In this document: positions 6,296 to 30,006 of the stretch, piece after piece
How the letters are laid out: each line of letters starts with the position of its first letter
Position numbering within the stretch: the stretch's first letter is position 1
Source: Planctomycetales bacterium
GTDB lineage: Bacteria; 4484-113; JAFGCY01
Length of the DNA stretch: 32,000 nt
Direction of reading: 5' to 3'
NCBI GenBank assembly: GCA_022646745.1
Contig: CP060262.1
Coordinates: 3,600,001 to 3,632,000, forward strand
Program-made: the position numbers and the translations under genes
The notes under the pieces: model-generated
The model's database searches: none
Told to the model about the DNA's origin: nothing
The model's input: the letters and a program-made list of their open reading frames with translations, nothing else

Positions 6296-8017
6296 TCAGA
6301 CCGCCGTGCCGTTGAGCAGGTCGTTGACGACGCGCTCCAGGTGCAGGGCGCGGCTGCCCTTGACCATCACCACCTTGGGCTTGTCATTGCGGTTGATCGC
6401 GCTGAGCAGTAGGGCACTGAGCTTGCTGGCTGCACGGTCGTCGAGGATAACGGTGTCGCCACGCTGGCGCTGCTCGGCCTGCTGGGCCCGGTTGCCAGCA
6501 CGCATCGGAGCGCCGAATTCGCGTGTGCTGCGCTCACCATGCATCGGCGCACCGAAGCTGCGGTCCTCCGGGCGGAAGCCCATCGAAGCCTCCAGTTCGC
6601 TGCGGCCTTCTATGTAGAACAGCTCCACATCATCCAGGCCCTCCACCTCGTTGAAGGCGTTCATGCGCGGCCCGATCGCATACACCTGCTTGAGCGGCAG
6701 GTTGAGCGTTGTCAGCGCGCACTGGCGGTGCAGCAGGGTCTCGTATTTGCCGAGCTCAAGCATGTCACCGATCACGAGGATCTTCTCAAAGCTGTCGTCA
6801 ATATTGAGCAGCAGCTCCAGGCTGTCACGCACGCTGGCCGGTGAGCTGTTGTAGCAGTCGTCAATCAGGAACAGGTCCTGCCCGAGCTGGAACAGGTTCA
6901 GGCGCTGCGGCGCAGGCAGCAGTTCAGGAGCCGCCTCGGCGATGTCGTCGAGAGTCAGGCCAAGCTTCAGTCCCGCAGTGGCAGCGGCGGTCAGGTTCTC
7001 GATTGCACCGCGACCGAGCATATGCAGGTTGACCTCGACCTTGCCTTCCTTCGTGCAGAGCATGAAGCGGCTGCCGTCGATCCCGAGCAGCTTCACGTCC
7101 TCCAGCCAGACATCGGCCTCCGGCAGGTCCAGCGGCAGCTCGAAGTTGTCATTGCGGGTGATGAAGGGCGGGATACCGCTGTTTCGGTAGGCCTCGGAAG
7201 CATCGAAGTACATGATGTCGTACTCATCACGGTTGGCCTTACGGTTGCCGATCTCCTCGAGGATGCCGAACAGGTTCTCATCGCGGCGGTTGAGCACGAC
7301 GGTACCGCCGGGTACCAGGCCGTCAACGATCTCGCCCTTGGCCTTGTAGACCTCCTCGAAGGAACCAAGCCGGCCCACATGGCTGCCCGATGTATTGGTG
7401 ATCATCGCGATGTTGGGATGTGAGATGCGGGAAAGCAGGCTGATCTCACCTCGGGCGCGCATCGCCATCTCCACCACTGTCATTTCGGTATAGGCATTGA
7501 TGCGACTCAGGGCCAGGGGTACGCCGATCTCGTTGTTGAAGTTCTTCTCGGTGCCGACGGTCTGGAAACGCTTGGCCAGCAGCTGGATCAGCATCTCCTT
7601 GGTGCCGGTCTTGCCGACGGAGCCGGTCACGCCGATCACTTTCGTGTCAAACTGGCGGCGGAACCACTCGGCCATCTTCTGCAGCGAGACCAGCGTGTGG
7701 CGCACCTCGATCACGCAGACATCCTCAAACTCGAGGAAACCGCGCTGCACCTGGGAGCGCAGCCAGCTGAGGATTTCGTGGATCTGGTGGTGGCCGGTGC
7801 GCACGAAGCAAGCCACGGCGCCCTTGCCGATGCTGTCGATGATGAACTGGTGCCCGTCGCGGCTCTGGCCCATCAGCGGCACGAACAGCGTGCGGTGGTC
7901 GACATAACGGCTGTCGATGCAGTAGTTGCCGAAGCGGATGTCCGGGTTGCCATGCAGCAGGCGCCCACCGATGGCAGGCAGCAGCTCGCCGATGGCGAAC
8001 GTGGATTCGTTACCCAT
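6296..8017 (-). CDS. murF: UDP-MurNAc-tripeptide--D-alanyl-D-alanine ligase, unusually long (573 aa)
   Basis: Mur-ligase P-loop GVTGSVGKTGTKEM, C-terminal ...VMVKGSRALHLERVV..., and dcw position. It contains an extra low-complexity block near the C-terminus (see findings). Confidence 0.88.
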   Translation of the reverse strand: MGNESTFAIGELLPAIGGRLLHGNPDIRFGNYCIDSRYVDHRTLFVPLMGQSRDGHQFIIDSIGKGAVACFVRTGHHQIHEILSWLRSQVQRGFLEFEDVCVIEVRHTLVSLQKMAEWFRRQFDTKVIGVTGSVGKTGTKEMLIQLLAKRFQTVGTEKNFNNEIGVPLALSRINAYTEMTVVEMAMRARGEISLLSRISHPNIAMITNTSGSHVGRLGSFEEVYKAKGEIVDGLVPGGTVVLNRRDENLFGILEEIGNRKANRDEYDIMYFDASEAYRNSGIPPFITRNDNFELPLDLPEADVWLEDVKLLGIDGSRFMLCTKEGKVEVNLHMLGRGAIENLTAAATAGLKLGLTLDDIAEAAPELLPAPQRLNLFQLGQDLFLIDDCYNSSPASVRDSLELLLNIDDSFEKILVIGDMLELGKYETLLHRQCALTTLNLPLKQVYAIGPRMNAFNEVEGLDDVELFYIEGRSELEASMGFRPEDRSFGAPMHGERSTREFGAPMRAGNRAQQAEQRQRGDTVILDDRAASKLSALLLSAINRNDKPKVVMVKGSRALHLERVVNDLLNGTAV

Positions 8018-8184: not shown

Positions 8185-9708
8185 TCAGGTAATGCTACCG
8201 CCCTGCCCTGCAAAATACTTCTCCACTTCCTCAGAGTCTGAGAAATGAATCGTCCGGTCGCGCAGGATCTGGTAGTCCTCGTGGCCCTTGCCGGCGATCA
8301 GCACGAAGTCACCCGCACTGGCCTCAGCCAGGGCGCGCTGGATCGCCTCGCGCCGGTCCTCAACCCGCATCCATGGGCCGCCATCGGGGTCCAGCCCGGC
8401 CAGGATCTCGTCGATGATCGCGGATGGGTCCTCAGTGCGCGGGTTGTCGCTGGTGAAGATGGACAGGCCGCTGCCCTGCTGGGCGATGCGTCCCATCTGC
8501 GGGCGCTTGCTGCGGTCCCGGTCCCCGCCACAGCCGACCACGGTAATCAGTCGATTTCCCTGCGGCACGAGACGGCCCAGTGCACTGACCACGTTGTCCA
8601 CCGCGTCCGGGGTGTGGGCATAATCCACATATACATTTATCCCAGCCGGGTTCGGCACGCGCTGCAGGCGGCCGGGCACGTTGCTGAAGGCCGCCAGTGC
8701 ATCCTTCACCTGGGACAATTCGAGACTTTCCAGCAGGGCCACGCCCACGGCGGCGGTGCAGTTGAAGACCTGGAAGTCTCCCGCCAGGCTGCAGGAAAGG
8801 CAGGCCATGTTCGAATCCTCAGCGAGGCTTGCGGGCCAGATGCCGTTCTTGAGCACCAGTTTCCAGCGCACCCCGCTGGCATCCGCCTGCGGTTCCGAGA
8901 TCACCAGGTTGCTGGCACGTTCGGTGCCGTACTTAAGCAGCAGGCCGTCAAAGCGCGAGGCATATGAACGGCCTGTTTCATCGTCAAGGTTGATCACTGC
9001 ATAGCCGCCCTGTGGGGCAAGGTAGTCCTTGAACAGGATTTCCTTGGCCGCGGCGTAGTCCTGCATGCTGCCATGGTAGTCAAAGTGGTCCTGGCTGAGG
9101 TTGGTGAACACACCGCCGGCGAAGCGGATGCCGGCCACGCGCTGCTGCTGCAGGGCATGGCTGGAGACCTCCATCACGAGGTGCGTAGCTCCTTCCCGCA
9201 CAAGGTTGGCAAGCATCTGCTGGATGTCAGCAGCATCGGGAGTCGTCAGCGAACCGCTGAGGAACTCCGCAGCACCGGGCCGCAGCAGGCCGAGAGTGCC
9301 AAGTACCGCGGCGCGGCGGCCGGCTGAGTTGAGCAGGTGGCCGAGCAGCAGGGCGGTCGATGTCTTGCCGTTCGTGCCCGTGATGCCGATCACGCGCAGC
9401 TTTTCACTCGGGTTGCCGAACATGCGAGCATTCAGCAGCGCGTAGGCCCTGCGGCTGTCGCTGACGCGCACGAAGGAACCTGTTGCATCAGGGTCCAGCG
9501 GCGCACTCTGCACTACCACCGAAGCGCCTGCAGCCAGGGCCTGCGCGATGAAGCGGTGCCCGTCATATTGCGTGCCGGGGATGGCAACGAACACGCTGCC
9601 GGGGACCACCTTCCTGCTGTCGCTGACGACACGGTCAACTTCCATGTCGCCAAACAGGTTCATGTGGTCCAGGGAGTCCATTCCCTCCAGCAGGTCATCA
9701 AGTCTCAT
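8185..9708 (-). CDS. murE: UDP-MurNAc-L-Ala-D-Glu--2,6-diaminopimelate ligase
   Basis: I place the start at internal Met 27 (MRLDDLLEG...). P-loop GITGTNGKTST. The DNPR motif (FTSDNPRTEDP) is characteristic of meso-DAP-adding MurE. Overlaps the ftsI stop by 11 nt. Confidence 0.9.
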   Translation of the reverse strand: MRLDDLLEGMDSLDHMNLFGDMEVDRVVSDSRKVVPGSVFVAIPGTQYDGHRFIAQALAAGASVVVQSAPLDPDATGSFVRVSDSRRAYALLNARMFGNPSEKLRVIGITGTNGKTSTALLLGHLLNSAGRRAAVLGTLGLLRPGAAEFLSGSLTTPDAADIQQMLANLVREGATHLVMEVSSHALQQQRVAGIRFAGGVFTNLSQDHFDYHGSMQDYAAAKEILFKDYLAPQGGYAVINLDDETGRSYASRFDGLLLKYGTERASNLVISEPQADASGVRWKLVLKNGIWPASLAEDSNMACLSCSLAGDFQVFNCTAAVGVALLESLELSQVKDALAAFSNVPGRLQRVPNPAGINVYVDYAHTPDAVDNVVSALGRLVPQGNRLITVVGCGGDRDRSKRPQMGRIAQQGSGLSIFTSDNPRTEDPSAIIDEILAGLDPDGGPWMRVEDRREAIQRALAEASAGDFVLIAGKGHEDYQILRDRTIHFSDSEEVEKYFAGQGGSIT

Positions 9709-13624: not shown

Positions 13625-14000
13625 CTGAGCCCCTTTGCAATTTCAGGTCACCGTTGGGAATTTATTCCCCTTTCAGGGACGTTCCTTTCGGTAGCAGCAT
13701 GATATCCGGTTTGAAATCTTCAAACAAGGGCAAATTAGGGACTTTGCTTAGTATCCGTTTAGTTATTGATGGAAAATTTCTGAAATAATTCAGAGGACTA
13801 TCTGTCGCAGTAACTGGCGTAATTGCGCACAATGTGGCTGAATGCAGTGTTGATCAGGCCTCAGGGGCGATCATGCAAGGCCGATCAGTCCCTTGTGCAG
13901 GGTTATCAAGGGACAGTAAGGGAAACATTCCCACAACAGGGCTGAAAAAGGACCGCGCAGAGGATGGCTGGACCTGCTGTACTACATATATATTTGGGCC

Positions 14001-15176
14001 GTGCTGGAATGGCTGGTGATCGGTGGCGGTGTGCAGGGCACCTTCGTGTCCCATGTGCTGTCCGTTCGACTGGGGGTCAGCCGGGATGACATCCGCGTGC
14101 TCGATCCACATGTGAATCCGTTGGCGCGCTGGCAGCAGACCACCGATGCCTGCGGGATGCGCTTCCTGCGCTCACCGGCGGCGCACCACGTCGGGATCCG
14201 TACCAATGAACTGCTCGACTGGACAAGGGCCAACTGCCCGGACTGGCGCAGGGAGTACCTGCAGCCCTACCTGAGACCCTCCCTGGCCTGCTGGAATGCG
14301 CACGCCAAATCAGTGATAGATGAACATCGACTGGAGGAAATGCGCATCCGTGGCAGTGCGCTGGACATCCACCGGAGTGATGACGGCAGCTTCCATGTGC
14401 AGACTTCTGTGGAATCGATCCACTCTAAGCGGATCGTGCTTGCGACCGGTAACAGCCAGCCCCTGCACTACCCCGCCCTGCCGGTGGATTCAGACCTTGC
14501 CGGCGAGCGCATCCGGCACCTGTTCGACCCGGCCTTCAGGCGCAGTGACATCCAGGCGGGTGAGAATGTCGTGATTGTCGGCAGTGGTGTCAGTGCCGCC
14601 CAGCTGGCAATCCGGCTGGCAGGGGAACAGGGCTGCAGGATACAGGTCCTGACTGACGGGATGCCGCAACTGAGCTGGTTTGACAGTGACCCCGGCTGGA
14701 ACGGGCCACGCCTGCTTTCCCGGCTGGCCGCTATTGCCGACCCGGAGGAGCGCCAGCGGATGGTCAGTGAAGCGCGCATCCGCGGTTCATTCCCCGGCGA
14801 CACCGCTGCCAGCCTGCTTGAATGCACCATCCTTGGAAAAATGACAATGCTTACAGGAAGGCTTGAATCCGTCTGTCAAGCCGGCAACTGTGTCCATCTT
14901 CGTTTCAATGATGAACATCTGACAACGGACCGCCTGGTATTCGCCACCGGATTCAGCACTGCAGTACCTGCTGCGCCACTCGTCGGGCAGCTCAGCGCGC
15001 GACTGGGACTACCGGTCTCCTCATGCGGCTGGCCTGTTGTCAACCAGTACTGCGAATGGGCAGCGGGTGTGCTTGTCTGCGGTGCGCTGGCCCAGCTCGA
15101 ACTCGGTCCGGTGTCCCGCAACATCAGCGGCATCCGCAGCTTTGCGCGCAGACTGGTTGAGCGATACAACGCCTGA
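14001..15176 (+). CDS. FAD/NAD(P)-binding oxidoreductase (two-dinucleotide-binding-domain flavoprotein)
   Basis: 391 aa, GTG start. N-terminal GxGxxG (VIGGGVQG), second dinucleotide motif (VIVGSGVSAAQLA), and LATG / FATGF motifs typical of flavoprotein reductases/monooxygenases. Substrate cannot be inferred. Confidence 0.7.
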   Translation: MLEWLVIGGGVQGTFVSHVLSVRLGVSRDDIRVLDPHVNPLARWQQTTDACGMRFLRSPAAHHVGIRTNELLDWTRANCPDWRREYLQPYLRPSLACWNAHAKSVIDEHRLEEMRIRGSALDIHRSDDGSFHVQTSVESIHSKRIVLATGNSQPLHYPALPVDSDLAGERIRHLFDPAFRRSDIQAGENVVIVGSGVSAAQLAIRLAGEQGCRIQVLTDGMPQLSWFDSDPGWNGPRLLSRLAAIADPEERQRMVSEARIRGSFPGDTAASLLECTILGKMTMLTGRLESVCQAGNCVHLRFNDEHLTTDRLVFATGFSTAVPAAPLVGQLSARLGLPVSSCGWPVVNQYCEWAAGVLVCGALAQLELGPVSRNISGIRSFARRLVERYNA

Positions 15177-15282: not shown

Positions 15283-15444
15283 TTATCCACATGCCATACA
15301 ATCCAGAATCACACTTGACACTTAACAAGTGTTGGGGTTACAATCTGGAATGTCAATGGGGTTGTGGATACCAGGGCGGAGAATCTATACGGATGGAAGT
15401 ATGAATCAACCACTTTCATACACTTATCCACAAAGTTATCCCCG
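15283..15444. promoter_or_regulatory. Cluster of DnaA-box motifs upstream of nrdJ
   Basis: TTATCCACA at 15283-15291 (+, 9/9). TGTGGATAC at 15363-15371, which is GTATCCACA on the minus strand (8/9). TTATCCACA at 15424-15432 (+, 9/9). TTATCCCCG at 15436-15444 (7/9). The surrounding region is visibly AT-richer than its flanks. Confidence 0.55.
15318..15332. promoter_or_regulatory. 15-bp palindrome ACACTTAACAAGTGT (candidate operator, NrdR-box-like half-sites)
   Basis: Perfect 7+1+7 inverted repeat ~360 nt upstream of the nrdJ ATG. It is flanked by TACAATCCAGAAT (15297-15309) and TACAATCTGGAAT (15339-15351). Confidence 0.3.
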
Positions 15445-15689
15445 CAACCTATTGAATAGCGCACATGGAAGTGCTATGTTTGTACCTGCGAAGGCTGCCG
15501 GGTTGCTGGACGGTCCGGTTAATGAGGATATTGCTGTGGGGAAGAGCTGTCGGTCGAAAGACCAGCTACCGGTTCCGCGCCGGTCACGGTTCCAACAGCG
15601 GTCCATAACTATTCGCAGGCGGTTTCGGGTCGGCAGAGGGTTGAGTATGGTCCGCCCGACGGGATGAGTATCAGCACCAGAGGTCGTGC

Positions 15690-19130: not shown

Positions 19131-19290
19131 GCAAGAACTAACAGCATTCAGGTATTCCAGCAAATCCCCATTAGTTGGGAAGTCTGTGAAGTCCAGTTAT
19201 ACTCTTCTTGGGTGCTGGACCTGTCCGGCACTGGTTGGAATACAGGAACCCTGTGTTACACCGAAGCGGCTGAATGAACTGGGGGTTTGC

Positions 19291-22645: not shown

Positions 22646-22731
22646 CTCCATGACTCTCCTACCTGCTGGAAACCAGCGCTCTGACTGTTCTTACTGTTCA
22701 ACTCCCTCTGCCCCCTGCGAGCTATTTTTAC

Positions 22732-22772
22732 TACACATTTGTATTTTCCACGTTATACTATACACATGTATG
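22732..22772 (+). promoter_or_regulatory. Putative dinB promoter with two operator-like sites
   Basis: -35-like TACACA (22732-22737), 16-nt spacer, -10-like TATACT (22754-22759). Near-palindromes TACACATTTGTA (22732-22743) and TACACATGTATG (22761-22772). The same layout occurs upstream of dnaE2. Confidence 0.45.
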
Positions 22773-22792
22773 GACAAGCGGAAAGAATCATC

Positions 22793-24178
22793 ATGCTGGC
22801 GGACATGGACTGCTTCTTCGTTGAGGTGGAGCGCCTGCACCGGCCGGAGCTGCGTGGCCAGGCCGTGATCATCGGCGGGCAGCCGCACCGGCGCGGCGTG
22901 GTCTCCGCCTGCAGCTATGAGGCACGGCGCTTCGGGGTGCACAGCGCGATGCCGATGGGCGAGGCCTACCGCCGGCTGGGGCTGGACCCCTCCCATCCGC
23001 TGGCCGAGGGGCAGACCATCGAGCGCCGCGGCGTGACGGTCAACTTCCTGCACAGCGGGCTGCATGGCAACTATGGGCTGTACAGCCGCCGCGTGCAGGA
23101 CGTGGTCTCGTCGCTTGTGCCGGTGTTCCGGCCGAAGAGCGTGGACGAGTTCGAGATGGACATCACCGGCTGCGAGACCATCTTCCGGCGCGACTACGGC
23201 GGGATCGTCGAATTCGCCGAGGAGCTGCGCCGCCGGGTGAGAAGCGAGGTCGGCCTGCCGATGTCAATCGGGATCGGCCCCGGGCGGCTCGTCGCCAAGA
23301 TGGCCAGCCGCCACGCCAAGCCCGACGGGGTGTTCCGTGTGCTGCCGCAGGAGGCCGTGTCCTTCCTCGCCCCGCATGATGTGCAGGACGTGCCGGGGAT
23401 CGGCCCGGCCACGGCGGGCACACTGCGCGACATGGGGATCAACCGCGTCGGCCAGCTGCTCCAGCAGGACCAGGCGCTGCTGCGCCAGACCTTCGGGATC
23501 GGGATGTGGAGCCTCGTCAATACGCTGAAGCACGGCGAGGACCGCGCGGTGCCGCCGCCCAACACCGGCGGCGGGATGAGCGAGCATGGCTCGATGGGGC
23601 TGCTGATGCGCGAGGACGGGCATGAGTCGCCGGCGATCGGCTTCGGCCCGGCGCGCGGCAAGCCGAAGAGCATTGGGCATTCGGTGACGCTGGAGCGCGA
23701 CACGCTGGATACGGCGCTGATCAGGCGCACGCTGTGGCGCCTGACGGAGGATGCCTGCCGGCGGCTGCGGGAGAAGGACCTGGCGGCCGGGCATGTTACT
23801 GTCACGATCCGCTACAGCGACTTCCAGACCATCAGCCACGGCGTGATGCTGAATGAACCGACGGACCTCGACCGCGTGGTCTATGAGACGGCGCTGCGAC
23901 TGTTTGACGAGGCGCGCACGCGCCGCCTGCGCATCCGCCTGCTGGGGGTGCGCCTCGAGAAGCTCAAGCCCGGCCTGAGCCAGCTCAGCCTGTTCGAACC
24001 GAAGAGCGTGACGCGTGAGCGCCAACTGACGCATACGCTGGATGCCCTGCGCGAGAAGCACGGCCGCGACGTGGTGCTGCTCGGCCCGGGGGTGAACCAG
24101 ATCGGCAGCGAGCGCATCAGCACGGATAGCCAGGCCGGCGTGTCAGTGAGCATGAGCCCGCAGCGGAGTGCGGTGTAG
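22793..24178 (+). CDS. dinB: DNA polymerase IV (Y-family translesion polymerase)
   Basis: I place the start at Met 19 of the ORF (MLADMDCFFVEVE..., the canonical catalytic DMDxFF motif), with GGAAAGAA upstream. Also SACSYEARRFGV, SIGIGPGRLVAKMAS, VQDVPGIGPATAGTL. 461 aa, longer than typical because of a linker insertion. Confidence 0.9.
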   Translation: MLADMDCFFVEVERLHRPELRGQAVIIGGQPHRRGVVSACSYEARRFGVHSAMPMGEAYRRLGLDPSHPLAEGQTIERRGVTVNFLHSGLHGNYGLYSRRVQDVVSSLVPVFRPKSVDEFEMDITGCETIFRRDYGGIVEFAEELRRRVRSEVGLPMSIGIGPGRLVAKMASRHAKPDGVFRVLPQEAVSFLAPHDVQDVPGIGPATAGTLRDMGINRVGQLLQQDQALLRQTFGIGMWSLVNTLKHGEDRAVPPPNTGGGMSEHGSMGLLMREDGHESPAIGFGPARGKPKSIGHSVTLERDTLDTALIRRTLWRLTEDACRRLREKDLAAGHVTVTIRYSDFQTISHGVMLNEPTDLDRVVYETALRLFDEARTRRLRIRLLGVRLEKLKPGLSQLSLFEPKSVTRERQLTHTLDALREKHGRDVVLLGPGVNQIGSERISTDSQAGVSVSMSPQRSAV

Positions 24179-25630: not shown

Positions 25631-28600
25631 TCACACCGGTGCATAGCTCGCGGGCTTGCTGCCCTTGCGGCGGCCGCCCTCGGCATCGTCGGCAACGAGG
25701 CGGTCCAGCTCATCGAGGCGCAGGAGCTTCAGCTCCTGGATTGACAATGTGCAGGTGCCGAACTGCTCCTCCACCTTGCCGGTGATCAAAAACGGCCCGG
25801 TGTAGCGCGTGAGCGGGGCGTAGCGGGCGTACTTGTCAGCGCGCAGGGTGCATTCGAAGGTGCCGGTCAGGTCCTCCATGCTCATGAACTTCATCGAGTT
25901 GCCGGGCCCGATGAATCCTCCCATCGTATGCGAGTCCGTCCCGCGGTTGCGGGACGGTGAGGTACCAGGGACCTGGGACCCGGGACCGGAAGAGGTTTCG
26001 GGTTTCGGGTTTCGGGTTTCGGTACCCGTAGCGGCGGCTTCCAGCCGCCGTCCGGCAGTTGCCGGTAGTGAGTTGTCAGTTTCAGCAAATCCATGGGATT
26101 GGCCTCCTGTCAGGCCATGGGCCTGACCTCCTACTCCCTCCTGACTCTTGCCAGTTCCCCGTTCCCCGTTCCCTGTTCCATCCCCGCGGCCCACGGCCCA
26201 GTCGTCGGTCATGCCGCCGCGCCTGACCAGGCCGAGGTCGGCCGCTGTGTCATTCAGCTCGTAGTCCTCGTCGCCACCGATGCCGCTCACGCTCAGTTCA
26301 TCCTCGTCGGCGGTGTACTGCTCCGGGTCATCATGGTTGGCAGCCTGCAGCTCGATCATGTCCTGCACCTGCCGGCGGCGCGAGAGGTCGACGCGCTTGG
26401 TGGCGATGCACCAGCCGAGCATCCGCACCCAGCGCCCGGCGTAGCGCGGCATCTCGCGGGCGTCGACAAGCCCGCTGACGAGGTTGGCATACAGGCTCAG
26501 GGGGTGGCGGCGCACCAGCATGCCGTAATGCTTCAGCTCGAGCGCGCAGAGCTTCAGCTCGTCGTAGTCATCGAGCCGTCCGGCCATGCGGCGGCGGAAC
26601 TCCTCAAGGCGAGCCGTCTCGTCGAATGGCAACTGGGAGGTTACTGGTTGCTGGTTGCTGGTTGCTGGTACTCCGGCAGCCGGCCCGTTTGACATCCCCA
26701 CCCGTGGATCTCCTTCGTCGATCCCCTCCCGGGATGTCCGGCTGCCAGGATAGGGATCAGAGATGCGGGATGCGGGATGAGCATTCCTGACACGCTCATT
26801 GCTCATTGCTCCCTGCTCATTGCCGGAGGAGTAATTGTCAGCTTCAGGGCTGACCTCCGTTCCATGGTCCCCGATCCCCGGTCCCCGGTCCCTGACCCGT
26901 CGCTTCGGCGTCGAATGCCGCAGTCCCGCTTTCCTCTCCTGCTGGGCCAGCCAGAGCAGCTCCGGGCGGCTCATGCCGAGGCTGTCCAGCGCCCCGGCCA
27001 GAACCAGCAGGTCGAGCTCCGACTCCGAGGGCCCGCAGCGGCGGATGAAGTCCGGCAGGCTGCGGAAGGGGCCATGCCCGCGGGCGGAAACGATGCGCTC
27101 GGTGATGGCAATCGGCAGGCCCTTGATGACTACGAGGGGCAGACGGATTGAGGAGCTTGGAGGTTGGAGTGTGGAGGTTGGAGCAGATGAGGGACCAGGG
27201 ACCCGGGACCCGGGACCAGAAGAGATTGGAGCTTGGAGGTTTGAGGTTGCAGTAGCGGCGGCTTCCAGCCGCCGGCTGGAGGGATGAGCAGTCCCGCCAC
27301 GCTCCTTGCTCATTGCTGCCTGCTCATTGCTCTGTGTCCTCTGTGCCTCTGTGGTTGACAATATGTGTTGTGCGGCTTGCACCGCACCTCCATCCTGGTC
27401 CCCGGTCCCCGATCCCTGATCCCTGTTGTCAGCCTCACGGCTGGGCTCCGCTGCCAATCCATGGGATTGGCCTCCTGTCAGGCCACGGGCCTGACCTCCT
27501 TCTCCCATCCCACATCCCCCATCCCGCATCCCGCATTCCGCACTGTAGTTCAGCCCCGAATGGTTGACATCCGGTGGCAGGATCGACAGGCCGAGTCGCT
27601 CGCATTCACTGATGTAGGCCCGCGCGCCGTAGAAGCCGCCGCCGTTGTCAAGCACCGCCGCCATGAACTGCGCCGGGTAGTGCGCCTTCAGCCAGGCCAC
27701 CTGGTAGCTCAGCGTGGCGAAGCTCGCCGAATGCGCCTTGCAGAAGCTGTAGCCGCTGAAGCTCGCCAGCTGCCGCCAGATCTCCAGCGCACTCGCCGTA
27801 TCCATCCCGCGCGCCTCGCAGCCGCTGACGAACTTCTCGCCCAGCGCCAGCATGCCGTCATGACGGTGCGGCTTGCTCATCACGCGGCGCATCAGGTCGG
27901 CATCGCTGCGTGACAACCCGGCCAGCTCATGCGCCACGCGGATCACATCCTCCTGGTAGATCATCACCCCATGCGTCTCCGGCAGCAGCTCCAGCATGCG
28001 CGGATGCGTGCGCAGCTCATGACGCGCCCCGTTCACACGGCGGATGTACTCCTGCATCATCCCGCTCTCCGCCACGCCAGGGCGGATCACGCTGGATGCC
28101 GCCGTCAGGCCGAGGAAGTCGCGCACGCCCAGCCGCTTCAGCAGCTGGCGCATGGCCGGGCTTTCGATGTAGAAGCAGCCCATCGTTTCGCCATGCCTGA
28201 CGAGCGCGTTCGTGGCCGGGTCCTGCGAGACCTGCTCGTGGTCCGTCAGGTCCGGCTTCAGGCCCTGTTCCCTGAGCGTTGCCAGGGTGTCCTCCAGCAC
28301 GCCGAGGCTGCGGTTGCCCAAGAGGTCGATCTTGATCAGCCCGACGGCCTCCACCGGGTGCATGTCGTACTGCGTGACGACGAAGCCCTTGGCGGCGCGC
28401 TGCAGACCGGTGAAGTAGTCCACATGGTTCGGCGCGATCACGATCCCGCCGCAGTGGATGCCGAGGTGCCGTGGCCGTCCGGCGAGCCGCGTTGCCAGCG
28501 GCAGCACGTGGCAGTATGGTTCGCTGTGCAGGTCCACGCCGCGCATCTCCGGGAAGTCGCGCACCACGCTGTCCAGCCCCGAGGCGCGGATGTTCGGCAG

Positions 28601-29908
28601 GAAGCGGCTGATGGTGCTGATCTCGCGGTCGCCGAGGCCATAGACCTTGGCAACCTCGCGCAGGGCCGAGCGTGCGCGGAAGGTCACGTGCGTGCTGATC
28701 ATGGCGACACGCTCATGGCCCCAGCGGTCGTAGACGTACTGCACGATCTCATCGCGCCGCCGCCAGTTGAAGTCGATGTCGATGTCCGGCGGGCTCTTGC
28801 GCGCCGGGTTGAGGAAGCGCTCGAAGTACATGTCGTAGCGGATCGGATCCACCGGTGTGAGGCCCAAAAGCCAGCTCACGAGCGAGTTGGCGGCCGAACC
28901 GCGCCCGAGGCAGGGGATGCGGCGGCGGCGGGACTCGCGCACGATGTCGTACACAGCGAGGAAGTAGCTGGTGTAGCCCAGCCGGTCGATCGCACCGAGC
29001 TCCATCTCGAGGCGCGCGAGGTACTCCTCCGTGGGGTGGCCGAACTTCAGGTCCAGGCTGCGGCGGCACAGGCCATGCAGCGCACGCGCCGGGTCGCCAC
29101 CGCCGGGCAGTTCGTAATGCGGGAACAGCCACTTGCCGTACTCGAACTCCACGTTCGTGGCCATTGCCAGCTTGCGGGCGTTGTCAAGCGCCTGCGGGCA
29201 GTCGTAGTAGTAGCCGCCCAGTTCCGTCGGTGCGCCGAGGTAGTGCCAGTTGCGGCGCACGCCGCGCGCAGTGTCCATCCCGCTGTTCTGCCCGATCGCG
29301 CGCAGCACGTGGTGCACCGGCTGGTCCTGCGGTCGCAGGAAGTGCACGTCGGTGCAGGCCACCGGGTGCAGCTTCAGCTCGCGGGCCAGCTTGAGCTGGC
29401 GGATCTGGCGCGCGCGCAGCTGCTCGCCGTAGTCCGGGGAGCAGCGCATGAACACGCGGTTGGGGCCAAGGCGCTTGAGCAGGATGCGCAGCAGCTCGTC
29501 GCGGTCACTGATGATCCAGCAGTGCTCGGTGTTGCCAAGCAGGGCGCGGGCCAGGTTGAACTGCGGGTCAAGCTGCCTGAGCGTGGCCAGCCGGCACAGC
29601 TCGCCGTAGCCGTCACGGTCGCGCGCGATCACCAGTGCGGCGGAGGCAGTCGGATCGGCGATGCCGGCCTCCAGCGAACGCCGCCCGGCCTGGGCCTTCA
29701 GTTCCTGCGGGTCGGTGAGGCTGATGCCGAGGACGGGGTGGATGCCGCACTTCAGGGCTGCGCGGTGGAAATGCAGCAGGCCATAGCAGCCGTCGGTATC
29801 GGCGATGCCGAAGGCCTCGAAGCCCAGCTCCGCCGCCTGCACGCAGAGATCCTCGGGGGCGCTGACCCCGTCATGGAAGCTGTACCAGCTGTGCGCGTCG
29901 AGATGCAC
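25631..29908 (-). CDS. dnaE2: DnaE2-type (error-prone, ImuC-like) DNA polymerase III alpha-subunit homologue with three in-frame insertions
   Basis: 1425 aa, GTG start. N-terminal PHP domain (HLDAHSWYSFHDGVS...IADTDGCYG), palm/fingers motifs (...PDIDIDFNWRRRDEI..., ...HCGGIVIAP..., ...GLIKIDLLGNRSL..., ...FCKAHSASFA...), and a C-terminal OB-fold region (...MKFMSMEDLTGTFECTL...). Removing the ~390 inserted codons leaves ~1035 aa, within the size range I recall for DnaE2. Confidence 0.85.
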   Translation of the reverse strand: MHLDAHSWYSFHDGVSAPEDLCVQAAELGFEAFGIADTDGCYGLLHFHRAALKCGIHPVLGISLTDPQELKAQAGRRSLEAGIADPTASAALVIARDRDGYGELCRLATLRQLDPQFNLARALLGNTEHCWIISDRDELLRILLKRLGPNRVFMRCSPDYGEQLRARQIRQLKLARELKLHPVACTDVHFLRPQDQPVHHVLRAIGQNSGMDTARGVRRNWHYLGAPTELGGYYYDCPQALDNARKLAMATNVEFEYGKWLFPHYELPGGGDPARALHGLCRRSLDLKFGHPTEEYLARLEMELGAIDRLGYTSYFLAVYDIVRESRRRRIPCLGRGSAANSLVSWLLGLTPVDPIRYDMYFERFLNPARKSPPDIDIDFNWRRRDEIVQYVYDRWGHERVAMISTHVTFRARSALREVAKVYGLGDREISTISRFLPNIRASGLDSVVRDFPEMRGVDLHSEPYCHVLPLATRLAGRPRHLGIHCGGIVIAPNHVDYFTGLQRAAKGFVVTQYDMHPVEAVGLIKIDLLGNRSLGVLEDTLATLREQGLKPDLTDHEQVSQDPATNALVRHGETMGCFYIESPAMRQLLKRLGVRDFLGLTAASSVIRPGVAESGMMQEYIRRVNGARHELRTHPRMLELLPETHGVMIYQEDVIRVAHELAGLSRSDADLMRRVMSKPHRHDGMLALGEKFVSGCEARGMDTASALEIWRQLASFSGYSFCKAHSASFATLSYQVAWLKAHYPAQFMAAVLDNGGGFYGARAYISECERLGLSILPPDVNHSGLNYSAECGMRDGGCGMGEGGQARGLTGGQSHGLAAEPSREADNRDQGSGTGDQDGGAVQAAQHILSTTEAQRTQSNEQAAMSKERGGTAHPSSRRLEAAATATSNLQAPISSGPGSRVPGPSSAPTSTLQPPSSSIRLPLVVIKGLPIAITERIVSARGHGPFRSLPDFIRRCGPSESELDLLVLAGALDSLGMSRPELLWLAQQERKAGLRHSTPKRRVRDRGPGIGDHGTEVSPEADNYSSGNEQGAMSNERVRNAHPASRISDPYPGSRTSREGIDEGDPRVGMSNGPAAGVPATSNQQPVTSQLPFDETARLEEFRRRMAGRLDDYDELKLCALELKHYGMLVRRHPLSLYANLVSGLVDAREMPRYAGRWVRMLGWCIATKRVDLSRRRQVQDMIELQAANHDDPEQYTADEDELSVSGIGGDEDYELNDTAADLGLVRRGGMTDDWAVGRGDGTGNGERGTGKSQEGVGGQAHGLTGGQSHGFAETDNSLPATAGRRLEAAATGTETRNPKPETSSGPGSQVPGTSPSRNRGTDSHTMGGFIGPGNSMKFMSMEDLTGTFECTLRADKYARYAPLTRYTGPFLITGKVEEQFGTCTLSIQELKLLRLDELDRLVADDAEGGRRKGSKPASYAPV
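25900..26390. repeat. dnaE2 in-frame insertion 3 (inside the OB-fold loop); modular repeats at 25935-26179
   Basis: Modules in order: hairpin CCGTCCCGC-GGTT-GCGGGACGG; GGGACC tract 25966-25989; (GGGTTTC)4 25994-26022; 23-nt GTAGCGGCGGCTTCCAGCCGCCG 26028-26050; half-element (hairpins C+D) 26085-26131; (GTTCCCC)3 26154-26179. Boundaries are approximate. Confidence 0.75.
26635..26925. repeat. dnaE2 in-frame insertion 2 (linker before the OB fold)
   Basis: Modules in order: (GGTTGCT)n 26639-26668; long hairpin GGCAGCCGG...CCGGCTGCC; (GATGCGG)n 26762-26782; 51-nt module 26774-26824; hairpin GTCAGC-TTCAGG-GCTGAC flanked by GGAGG/CCTCC; (GGTCCCC)n 26867-26898. Boundaries are approximate. Confidence 0.75.
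27149..27540. repeat. dnaE2 in-frame insertion 1 (between ...DVNHSGLNYSAE and IRLPLVVIKGL...)
   Basis: Modules in order: GGAGNTTGGAGGTT tracts 27152-27184 and 27226-27250; GGGACC tract 27191-27218; 23-nt GTAGCGGCGGCTTCCAGCCGCCG 27252-27274; 51-nt module 27281-27331; CTCTGTG repeats; hairpin GTGCGG-CTTGCA-CCGCAC; inverted GGTCCCC tract 27397-27425; half-element 27453-27499; CATCCC tract 27506-27540. Confidence 0.8.
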
Positions 29909-29957
29909 GGCTCAGCCCCGCCTTGCCCCGGGGGCCGGCCCCTCCGCCGTCCTCTTA

Positions 29958-29996
29958 TACACATGTGTAGTATAACAGAAAGACTATACGTGTGTT
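29958..29996 (-). promoter_or_regulatory. Putative dnaE2 promoter with two operator-like sites
   Basis: Perfect 12-bp palindrome TACACATGTGTA (29958-29969) abuts a -10-like TATACT (minus strand, 29969-29974). A 16-nt spacer separates it from a -35-like AACACA (29991-29996), which lies within the degenerate site AACACACGTATA (29985-29996). It aligns position for position with the dinB upstream region. Confidence 0.45.
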
Positions 29997-30006
29997 TATT
30001 GCGTAG

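What the first reader, a model, noticed from the sequence alone, without database searches (positions are those of the whole stretch)
22729..22772. dinB and dnaE2 share a position-for-position promoter/operator built on TACACA|TGTGTA (candidate SOS box)
dinB sense strand: TACACATTTGTAttttccacGTTATACTATACACATGTATgg. dnaE2 sense strand: AACACACGTATAgtctttctGTTATACTACACATGTGTATaa. Both have a -35-like (T/A)ACACA, a 16-nt spacer and an identical GTTATACTA containing a -10-like TATACT. Both also carry a palindromic site at or just after the -10. That site is a perfect TACACATGTGTA for dnaE2 and 10/12 for dinB. A second related site overlaps the -35 (11/12 for dinB, 9/12 for dnaE2). Two translesion polymerase genes are the classic core of LexA regulons. 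As far as I recall, this 12-bp motif does not match the LexA boxes described for E. coli (CTGT-N8-ACAG), Gram-positives (GAAC-N4-GTTC) or alphaproteobacteria (GTTC-N7-GTTC). It may therefore be a lineage-specific SOS operator or the site of a different damage-responsive repressor.
Basis: partly seen in the sequence, partly recalled or inferred. Interest (0 to 1): 0.7.

Follow-up and report, generated by a model that had tools for sequence, protein, structure and literature searches.

The report
Conserved SOS-type operator on polymerase promoters
Two DNA-damage-tolerance polymerase genes of an uncultured bacterium (candidate phylum UBP7/4484-113) share a conserved palindromic repressor site that overlaps their promoters; it is most likely a previously undescribed variant of the LexA "SOS box".

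Summary
Thirty orthologous or paralogous promoters from about 18 relatives define a 14-16 bp palindrome, (C)TAYAC-AYRT-GTRTA(G).

Site O2 is always in one register: its first T is the last T of the -10 hexamer (TATACT). A second copy, O1, lies 27-30 bp upstream over the -35 in about two thirds of promoters. The dinB start codon sits at box positions 8-10, 6 nt after the -10, so the mRNA is probably leaderless.

In relatives the same box precedes an alkB-family gene and the class II ribonucleotide reductase gene nrdJ. dinB and the PolIII-alpha-like gene are often one operon. A near-identical palindrome, CCACACAWWTGTGTGG, lies between the -35 and -10 of lexA itself in Omnitrophota lexA-dinB operons and in one other lineage.

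Best reading: a lineage-specific LexA-type operator (confidence about 0.65). No lexA or recA locus of this lineage could be retrieved, so the repressor's identity remains inferred. It is a new variant of a known kind, of moderate interest.

The parts
22732..22745 (+). dinB upstream operator O1 (TACACATTTGTATT), overlapping the -35 region, 27 bp upstream of O2
   Evidence: 9 of 10 arm positions match. Scores 19.8 bits with a matrix trained on other genomes. Conserved in L003, L006 and L012-L014.
22754..22759 (+). -10 hexamer TATACT of dinB (inferred); its last T is box position 1 of O2
   Evidence: Found by the promoter scan. All 30 related promoters keep TAnnnT at this position.
22759..22772 (+). 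dinB operator O2 (TATACACATGTATG), spanning the end of the -10, the inferred +1 and codons 1-3
   Evidence: Scores 23.8 bits. Present in the same register in 30 of 30 promoters.
22766..24178 (+). dinB (Y-family DNA polymerase, 470 aa). Start ATG 22766-22768 lies at box positions 8-10, so the mRNA is probably leaderless.
   Evidence: Pfam IMS, IMS_C and IMS_HHH. In 15 of 18 orthologs box positions 8-10 are ATG or GTG in frame with DinB, and in 14 of them this is 6-12 codons before the LAD(L/M)DCFF motif. Gene callers chose this start in P0001-P0003.
29985..29998 (-). PolIII-alpha-like gene upstream operator O1 (TAAACACACGTATA on the minus strand), 29 bp upstream of O2
   Evidence: 10 of 10 arm positions match. 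Scores 21.7 bits.
29969..29974 (-). -10 hexamer TATACT of the PolIII-alpha-like gene, preceded by TG (extended -10)
29956..29969 (-). PolIII-alpha-like gene operator O2 (TACACATGTGTATA on the minus strand)
   Evidence: 10 of 10 arm positions match. Scores 20.0 bits. Orthologous sites are present in L003, L010, L011, L012-L014 and L019.
29912..29962 (-). Possible leaderless 16-codon upstream ORF (VYKRTAEGPAPGARRG*). It starts at box positions 8-10 and ends 3 nt before the main GTG.
   Evidence: L003 has the same layout; it is absent in L010, L011 and L019, so its function is unproven.
25631..29908 (-). PolIII-alpha family polymerase (1425 aa), DnaE2-like by context
   Evidence: Pfam PHP, DNA_pol3_alpha, finger and HHH_6. 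Below the NCBIfam cut-offs for both DnaE and the error-prone polymerase. It directly follows dinB as an operon in L008, L131, L132 and L133.
15321..15336 (+). Degenerate box (CTTAACAAGTGTTGGG) between the -35 TTGACA (15315-15320) and the -10 TACAAT (15339-15344) of nrdJ
   Evidence: Scores 10.9 bits, not significant on its own. The orthologous position carries good boxes in L012 (TATACACATGTTTG) and L003 (TATACGCATGTTTA). L131 has two boxes upstream of nrdJ.

Best explanation
The element is a pair of operators for a dimeric, DNA-damage-responsive repressor, most probably this lineage's LexA.

Proposed mechanism:
- The primary site O2, (C)TAYAC-AYRT-GTRTA(G), begins at the last base of the -10 hexamer and runs across the transcription start. 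A bound repressor would therefore exclude RNA polymerase.
- A second site, O1, 27-30 bp upstream, covers the -35 and would strengthen repression.
- After DNA damage the repressor would be inactivated. For LexA this happens by RecA-stimulated self-cleavage.
- dinB would then be transcribed as a leaderless mRNA that starts at its own ATG/GTG inside the box, and the DnaE2-like polymerase gene would be transcribed as well.
- In relatives the same regulon includes an alkB-family dioxygenase gene and nrdJ.

Shown here: the motif, its fixed register, its conservation, the set of genes it precedes, and a related motif in lexA promoters of other lineages.

Inferred: the transcription start, repression, and LexA as the binding protein.
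For: 1. Conservation. O2 is present in the same register in 30 of 30 dinB, dnaE2-like and alkB promoters from about 18 genomes whose DinB is only 42-99% identical. O1 is present in 21 of 30. In 37 distinct sites A4 and C5 are invariant, G10 is kept in 36 and T11 in 34. A6 is kept in 31 and T9 in 32.

2. Specificity. The relaxed pattern occurs only 3 times in 960 kb of unrelated loci. The window sites score 19.8-23.8 bits against a null maximum of 17.0.

3. Not a coding or RNA constraint. The right arm is kept both inside the dinB coding sequence and in the non-coding dnaE2 leader. The left arm and O1 lie upstream of the inferred +1.

4. Gene content. The box precedes dinB, a PolIII-alpha-like gene (often in a dinB-dnaE operon), an AlkB-family ORF whose GTG lies at box positions 8-10 (L022), and nrdJ in L003, L012 and L131. 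An SRAP gene sits directly upstream of dinB in L132.

5. Link to LexA. In 17 of 18 Omnitrophota loci, CCACACAWWTGTGTGG sits between the -35 and -10 upstream of lexA-dinB; in 16 it lies directly before lexA, and in L032 another gene intervenes. CCACTCAGGTGTGTGG sits in the same position before lexA in L135-L138. These differ from the UBP7 box mainly at the outermost arm base. Intermediate forms exist within the clade (L053 O1 is CTACACAAACGTGTGG).

6. Architecture. The 5-N4-5 layout with an AC-N4-GT core is that of Gram-positive-type LexA boxes. An EMSA-validated LexA motif with TACACA/TACATA half-sites exists in Balneolaeota (PMC7739468).
Against: - No lexA, recA or uvrA locus of this lineage could be retrieved. 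There is no LexA-like ORF in 348 kb of clade loci. Autoregulation and the classic core regulon are therefore untested in the same genomes.
- The Omnitrophota DinB is only 22-27% identical to this one, so the operator similarity could be convergent.
- The nrdJ site in the window itself is degenerate (10.9 bits).
- The transcription start and repression are inferred from sequence only.
Confidence: 0.65

Rival explanations
1. This is an operator for a different, non-LexA repressor that controls a damage-tolerance regulon. Candidates are an XRE/ImmR-DdrO-type repressor, a WYL-type repressor, or a BlaI/MecI/CopY-family winged-helix repressor whose sites contain TACA-NN-TGTA.
For: - No lexA was found near any of about 20 clade dinB loci.
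- Several lineages are known to have replaced LexA with other repressors (PMC8565304).
- Six of 37 sites contain TACA-NN-TGTA in the central register.
Against: - The closest motif found anywhere sits in front of lexA itself in two other lineages.
- The cop-box core is present in only 6 of 37 sites, while the conserved positions lie outside it (T1, A2, T13, A14 and the flanking C/G).
- No candidate regulator gene recurs next to the boxes (gene lists).
Confidence: 0.2
2. There is no repressor. The shared sequence is only a strong promoter plus a leaderless start context (TG-n-TATACT-N6-ATG), inherited by both genes when an ancestral dinB-dnaE operon promoter was duplicated.
For: - GTTATACT also occurs at a third promoter-like site (19196-19203) that has no box.
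- The start codon 6 nt after the -10 accounts for box positions 8-10.
- dinB and dnaE form one operon in many relatives, so promoter duplication is plausible.
Against: - It does not explain the dyad symmetry, averaging 5.3 of 7 complementary pairs in O2.
- It does not explain retention of the right arm in the non-coding dnaE leader.
- It does not explain the second copy, O1, upstream.
- It does not explain a box placed between the -35 and -10 at nrdJ.
- It does not explain the same box at alkB, where the -10 is different (TAAGCT).
Confidence: 0.07
3. These are NrdR boxes, the operators of the ribonucleotide-reductase repressor, extended here to replication and repair genes.
For: - The box occurs in nrdJ promoters of L003, L012 and L131.
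- Sites come in pairs about 3 helical turns apart.
- The half-site ACTATA resembles the NrdR consensus acaCwAtATaTwGtgt (recalled from Rodionov and Gelfand 2005, not checked here).
Against: - The half-site spacing differs by 6 bp from the NrdR box.
- In the three close relatives of the window, nrdJ carries only one box, and in the window it is degenerate; only L131 has two.
- The best and most constant sites are at TLS-polymerase genes, not at nrd genes.
Confidence: 0.03

Closest known systems
LexA (SOS/Cheo) boxes of the 5-N4-5 class, e.g. Gram-positive GAAC-N4-GTTC
   Same: It is a 14-bp palindrome with a fixed 4-bp spacer and an AC-N4-GT core. It overlaps the core promoter of translesion-polymerase genes and is sometimes present in two copies.
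   Different: The outer arm bases are TA(Y), not CGA. None of 37 sites contains GAAC-N4-GTTC. The centre is constrained to A-Y-R-T. Binding by LexA has not been shown.
CCACACAWWTGTGTGG palindrome in lexA promoters of Omnitrophota and of L135-L138
   Same: It has the same length, the same ACA-N2-TGT centre and the same A/C pattern in the arms. It overlaps the promoter, with the start codon about 7 nt after the -10. In Omnitrophota it controls dinB through a lexA-dinB operon.
   Different: The outermost arm base is C/G instead of T/A, and position 3 is fixed as C. It lies between the -35 and -10 rather than across the -10 and +1. It belongs to a different phylum, whose DinB is 22-27% identical.
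Balneolaeota LexA motif TTACACATATTTTWTACATA (PMC7739468, EMSA-validated)
   Same: It uses TACACA/TACATA-type half-sites and controls translesion polymerases.
   Different: It is a direct repeat, not an inverted repeat, and the spacing differs.
imuA-imuB-dnaE2 mutagenesis cassette and its ImuA-less PolY-DnaE2 variants (PMC6511836)
   Same: A Y-family polymerase gene is coupled to a second PolIII-alpha gene, often in one operon, under a damage-type operator.
   Different: No imuA or imuB-C was seen. The Y-family member keeps the catalytic-type DxD...E context (LADMDCFFVEVE). The polymerase falls below the NCBIfam cut-off for the error-prone family.
BlaI/MecI/CopY operators (TACA-NN-TGTA), recalled from memory
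   Same: The central TACA..TGTA appears in some sites, and the site overlaps the promoter.
   Different: Only 6 of 37 sites contain it. The conserved positions extend well beyond it. No BlaI/BlaR-type gene is nearby.

Membership tests
LexA operator (SOS box) | Bound specifically by the organism's LexA (S24 peptidase with a winged-helix DNA-binding domain) | not testable with these tools
   No lexA of the lineage was retrieved. EMSA is needed.
LexA operator (SOS box) | Present in the promoter of lexA itself (autoregulation) in the same lineage | not tested
   lexA loci of UBP7/4484-113 could not be fetched. A closely related palindrome is in lexA promoters of Omnitrophota (directly before lexA in 16 of 18 loci, with another gene between in a 17th) and of L135-L138.
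LexA operator (SOS box) | Fixed-spacer dyad (or repeat) conserved across orthologous promoters | tested here: met
   30 of 30 promoters carry TAYAC-N4-GTRTA in one register.
LexA operator (SOS box) | Located upstream of core SOS genes | tested here: inconclusive
   Met for translesion polymerases (dinB, the DnaE2-like gene), and the box also precedes alkB and nrdJ.
LexA operator (SOS box) | Overlaps the core promoter so that binding represses transcription | tested here: met
   O2 shares its first base with the -10 hexamer and spans the inferred +1. O1 covers the -35. Repression itself is inferred.
Gram-positive-type LexA box GAAC-N4-GTTC | Consensus CGAAC-N4-GTTCG | tested here: not met
   0 of 37 sites match. 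Only the AC-N4-GT core is shared, in 33 of 37.
E. coli-type LexA box | CTGT-N8-ACAG | tested here: not met
   Read directly from the four window sites and the consensus.
NrdR box | 16-bp acaCwAtATaTwGtgt, tandem boxes at nrd promoters | tested here: not met
   The consensus and half-site spacing differ. The nrdJ box is single in L003 and L012 and degenerate in the window, though L131 has two. The NrdR consensus is recalled from memory.
BlaI/MecI/CopY operator | TACA-NN-TGTA core; cognate repressor/sensor genes | tested here: not met
   The core is in 6 of 37 sites. No such genes appear in the gene lists.
DnaE2 (error-prone PolIII alpha, ImuC) | Scores above the family threshold; linked to imuA-imuB or a PolY gene; a second copy exists beside the replicative DnaE | tested here: inconclusive
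   NF004225 scores 570-621 bits against a cut-off of 939, and NF004226 (DnaE) scores 625-701 against 1002. Linkage to a PolY gene is met. The existence of a separate replicative dnaE was not checked.

The most novel reading that the evidence does not exclude
The box may not be bound by LexA at all. It could be the operator of an unidentified damage-responsive repressor in a candidate phylum whose SOS-like regulon (a dinB-dnaE2 mutasome, alkB, nrdJ) is built entirely on leaderless transcripts, with the operator's right half doubling as the first three codons (M/V-Y-S/R).
Probability: 0.2. Interest if true: 0.7.

Novelty: new variant of a known kind. Interest (0 to 1): 0.5.

Why it matters
LexA-binding motifs have diverged repeatedly, and each new one helps reconstruct how the SOS network evolved.

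- This result gives a candidate SOS operator for an uncultured phylum (UBP7/4484-113).
- It connects that operator to a sister motif in front of lexA in Omnitrophota and at least one more lineage. I found neither motif in the searchable literature.
- It points to a compact damage regulon centred on a dinB-DnaE2-like polymerase pair without imuA or imuB.
- It shows an unusual economy: the -10, the operator, the transcription start and the start codon are packed into about 20 bp.
- With the weight matrix, the regulon can be predicted in any MAG of these phyla.

Tried and rejected
Rejected: its TACA-N4-TGTA skeleton is in only 5 of 37 sites, and it forces a 2-bp register shift between dinB and dnaE.
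- RNA element. Rfam finds nothing in the window. The left arm and O1 lie upstream of the inferred +1, and a 5-bp A/U-rich stem would be marginal.
- Known motifs. The Bacteroidetes non-canonical LexA motifs (GGA-N5-TCC, CTAA-N5-TTAG) do not match. Literature string searches for the UBP7 and Omnitrophota motifs returned nothing relevant.
- Hunting lexA of the lineage:
  - A homology search with an Omnitrophota LexA returned only Omnitrophota.
  - A representative search, followed by a profile of mid/high-GC LexAs sharing the STGTVRD recognition helix, gave no contig-length match to known clade contigs.
  - The one locus fetched (P0404, L135) carries the CCAC-type box, and its phylum is unknown.
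  - The cluster look-up gave no useful names.
- Database-wide motif scan. Judged infeasible, because a 16-bp degenerate motif gives thousands of chance hits per terabase. The stricter -10-plus-box pattern in viral contigs gave 6 hits, about the chance expectation, and none was from this lineage.
- One contig (P0009) had no DNA available.

Full report
**Observation.** GTTATACTA occurs only at these two places (0.00 expected). TACA-N4-TGTA also occurs only there (0.04 expected).

**Source organism.** The closest DinB relatives come from uncultured MAGs labelled 'UBP7', 'bacterium' or, loosely, 'Planctomycetales bacterium'. One ENA bin is named Bacteria_4484_113_JAFGCY0, that is GTDB phylum 4484-113. 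I collected about 20 non-redundant loci of this clade (DinB 42-99% identical, 348 kb in total) with the look-up of encoding contigs and the search for related loci.

**What is conserved.**
- Across 30 promoters (dinB, a dinB paralog, the PolIII-alpha-like gene, an alkB-family gene), one element is always present in the same register: TAYAC-N4-GTRTA. Its first T is the last T of a TAnnnT hexamer, usually TATACT and often preceded by TG.
- A symmetrised count over 33 sites gives aCTAyACAyrTGTrTAGt. In 37 distinct sites A4 and C5 are invariant, G10 is kept in 36 and T11 in 34. A6 is kept in 31 and T9 in 32.
- A second copy, O1, lies 27-30 bp upstream over the -35 in 19 promoters, and 16 bp upstream in 2. 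Nine promoters have none.
Its skeleton is present in only 5 of 37 sites.
- A matrix trained on other genomes only scores the four window sites at 19.8-23.8 bits, against a null maximum of 17.0.
- A relaxed pattern occurs 3 times in 960 kb of unrelated loci.

**Promoter anatomy.**
- In 15 of 18 dinB orthologs, box positions 8-10 are ATG or GTG in frame with DinB. In 14 of these the start lies only 6-12 codons before the catalytic LAD(L/M)DCFF motif; L007 has a long N-terminal extension. Gene callers picked that start. L131 and L133 read the same way.
- The start codon is therefore 6 nt after the -10, at the usual distance of a transcription start. I infer a leaderless dinB mRNA. This is not shown experimentally.
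- The right operator arm then encodes residues 1-3 (M/V-Y/F-S/R/G).
- At the PolIII-alpha-like gene the same positions are followed by a roughly 50-nt leader. In the window and in L003 this leader contains a 16-codon ORF ending 3 nt before the main start. The ORF is absent in more distant relatives, so I leave it as an unexplained detail.
- GTTATACT also occurs at a third promoter-like site (19196-19203) without a box. The -10 context is therefore generic and the dyad is the specific part.

**Genes carrying the box.**
- dinB and the PolIII-alpha-like gene are neighbours in nearly every genome. They are contiguous, as an operon, in L008, L131, L132 and L133. In the window lineage they are separate and each has its own O1-O2 pair.
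- In L022 the box precedes a 2OG-Fe(II) oxygenase of the AlkB family whose GTG again sits at box positions 8-10; the -10 there is TAAGCT.
- The class II ribonucleotide reductase gene nrdJ has a good box between its -35 and -10 in L003 and L012, and two boxes in L131. In the window and in L014 the orthologous site is degenerate at 10.9 bits.
- An SRAP (SOS-response-associated peptidase) gene sits just upstream of dinB in L132.
- This is a DNA-damage and replication-stress gene set.

**Link to LexA.**
- None of the clade loci contains a LexA-like ORF.
- The same genome scan returned 18 Omnitrophota loci in which lexA lies directly upstream of a distant dinB homolog. In 17 of them the palindrome CCACACAWWTGTGTGG lies between a TTGACA -35 and a TATAT(c) -10; in 16 the lexA start follows about 7 nt after the -10, and in L032 another gene lies between the box and lexA. 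Sources annotate those proteins as LexA.
- A LexA with the same recognition-helix sequence (FGFRSTGTVRDHL), from a mid-G+C lineage of unknown phylum, has CCACTCAGGTGTGTGG in the same position.
- lexA is almost universally autoregulated (established knowledge), so this palindrome is very likely the LexA box of those lineages.
- It differs from the UBP7 box essentially at the outermost arm base (C/G versus T/A). Intermediates occur inside the clade (L053 O1 is CTACACAAACGTGTGG).
- The 5-N4-5 layout with an AC-N4-GT core is that of Gram-positive-type LexA boxes. LexA of Balneolaeota has been shown by EMSA to bind TACACA/TACATA repeats (PMC7739468).
- Taken together, these points make LexA the most likely binder. 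It remains an inference by homology.

**What could not be done.** I could not fetch lexA, recA or uvrA of this lineage. Protein searches return the relatives closest to the query, not to the phylum. A 16-bp degenerate motif cannot be scanned across terabase collections without thousands of chance hits. A stricter pattern in viral contigs gave only chance-level hits.

**Comparison with known systems.**
- The element works like an SOS box.
- It is not the E. coli, Gram-positive, alphaproteobacterial or Bacteroidetes motif.
- It is not an NrdR box, because the half-site spacing differs.
- It is not a BlaI/CopY site, because that core is in only 6 of 37 sites.
- I found no description of either the UBP7 or the Omnitrophota motif in the searchable literature.
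- The coupling of an apparently active PolY with DnaE2, without ImuA or ImuB-C, resembles variants described in Bacteroidetes and Streptomyces (PMC6511836).
- The label 'dnaE2' is contextual. The protein falls below the NCBIfam cut-offs for both DnaE (625-701 against 1002 bits) and the error-prone polymerase (570-621 against 939 bits). Its shortest ortholog (L132) stops short of the DnaE C-terminal tail.

**Verdict.**
- Best explanation: a lineage-specific LexA-type dual operator on leaderless damage-inducible promoters (confidence 0.65).
- Main rival: a non-LexA repressor (0.2).
- It is a new variant of a known kind, with interest about 0.5.

Noticed in passing
window 15283-15291, 15424-15432, 15437-15445: Two perfect DnaA boxes (TTATCCACA) and one near-perfect box flank the nrdJ promoter and lie in its roughly 345-nt leader. 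Similar boxes are in L012 and L131. This suggests DnaA control of the class II ribonucleotide reductase. The leader has no Rfam match.
   Followed up: partly
window 29912-29962 (-): A leaderless 16-codon upstream ORF (VYKRTAEGPAPGARRG*) ends 3 nt before the GTG of the PolIII-alpha-like gene. L003 has the same layout; L010, L011 and L019 do not. It may allow termination-reinitiation coupling.
   Followed up: partly
L032-L049 (e.g. L034 9004-9017); L135 10009-10022: The palindrome CCACACAWWTGTGTGG sits between the -35 and -10 of lexA in Omnitrophota lexA-dinB operons, and a variant sits before lexA of a mid-GC lineage. It is probably an undescribed LexA box. Those LexAs share the helix FGF(K/R)STGTVRD(Y/H)L.
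   Followed up: partly
L056 about 6560-6600; L061 about 8985-9015: Two other lexA-dinB loci have a different shared upstream motif (GATATC ... (C/G)TATAGT) before lexA. This may be another LexA-box type.
   Followed up: no
window 25631-29908 (-): The PolIII-alpha-like protein (1425 aa) carries three lineage-specific insertions relative to its 1069-1179-aa orthologs, at roughly residues 790-910, 990-1090 and 1230-1340.
   Followed up: no
window 19175-19203: A third GTTATACT promoter-like site (TTGGGA-17-TATACT) lies upstream of the PKD-domain protein gene and has no box. This suggests that GTTATACT is this organism's generic strong -10 context.
   Followed up: partly
L139, L143, L144 (IMG/VR contigs): Three related phage contigs (GC about 0.5) carry TATACTACACA(T/C)GTGTGTA in a conserved region next to a divergently oriented gene. 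This may be a phage operator of similar design in another host.
   Followed up: no
window 13982-13997: A weak box-like sequence (CTACATATATATTTGG, 9.9 bits) lies just upstream of the flavin/NAD oxidoreductase ORF at 14001. It is not significant on its own.
   Followed up: no
P0278, P0319, P0341, P0387: Some LexA representatives from low-GC uncultured bacteria are fused at the C-terminus to a DNA-methyltransferase-like domain.
   Followed up: no
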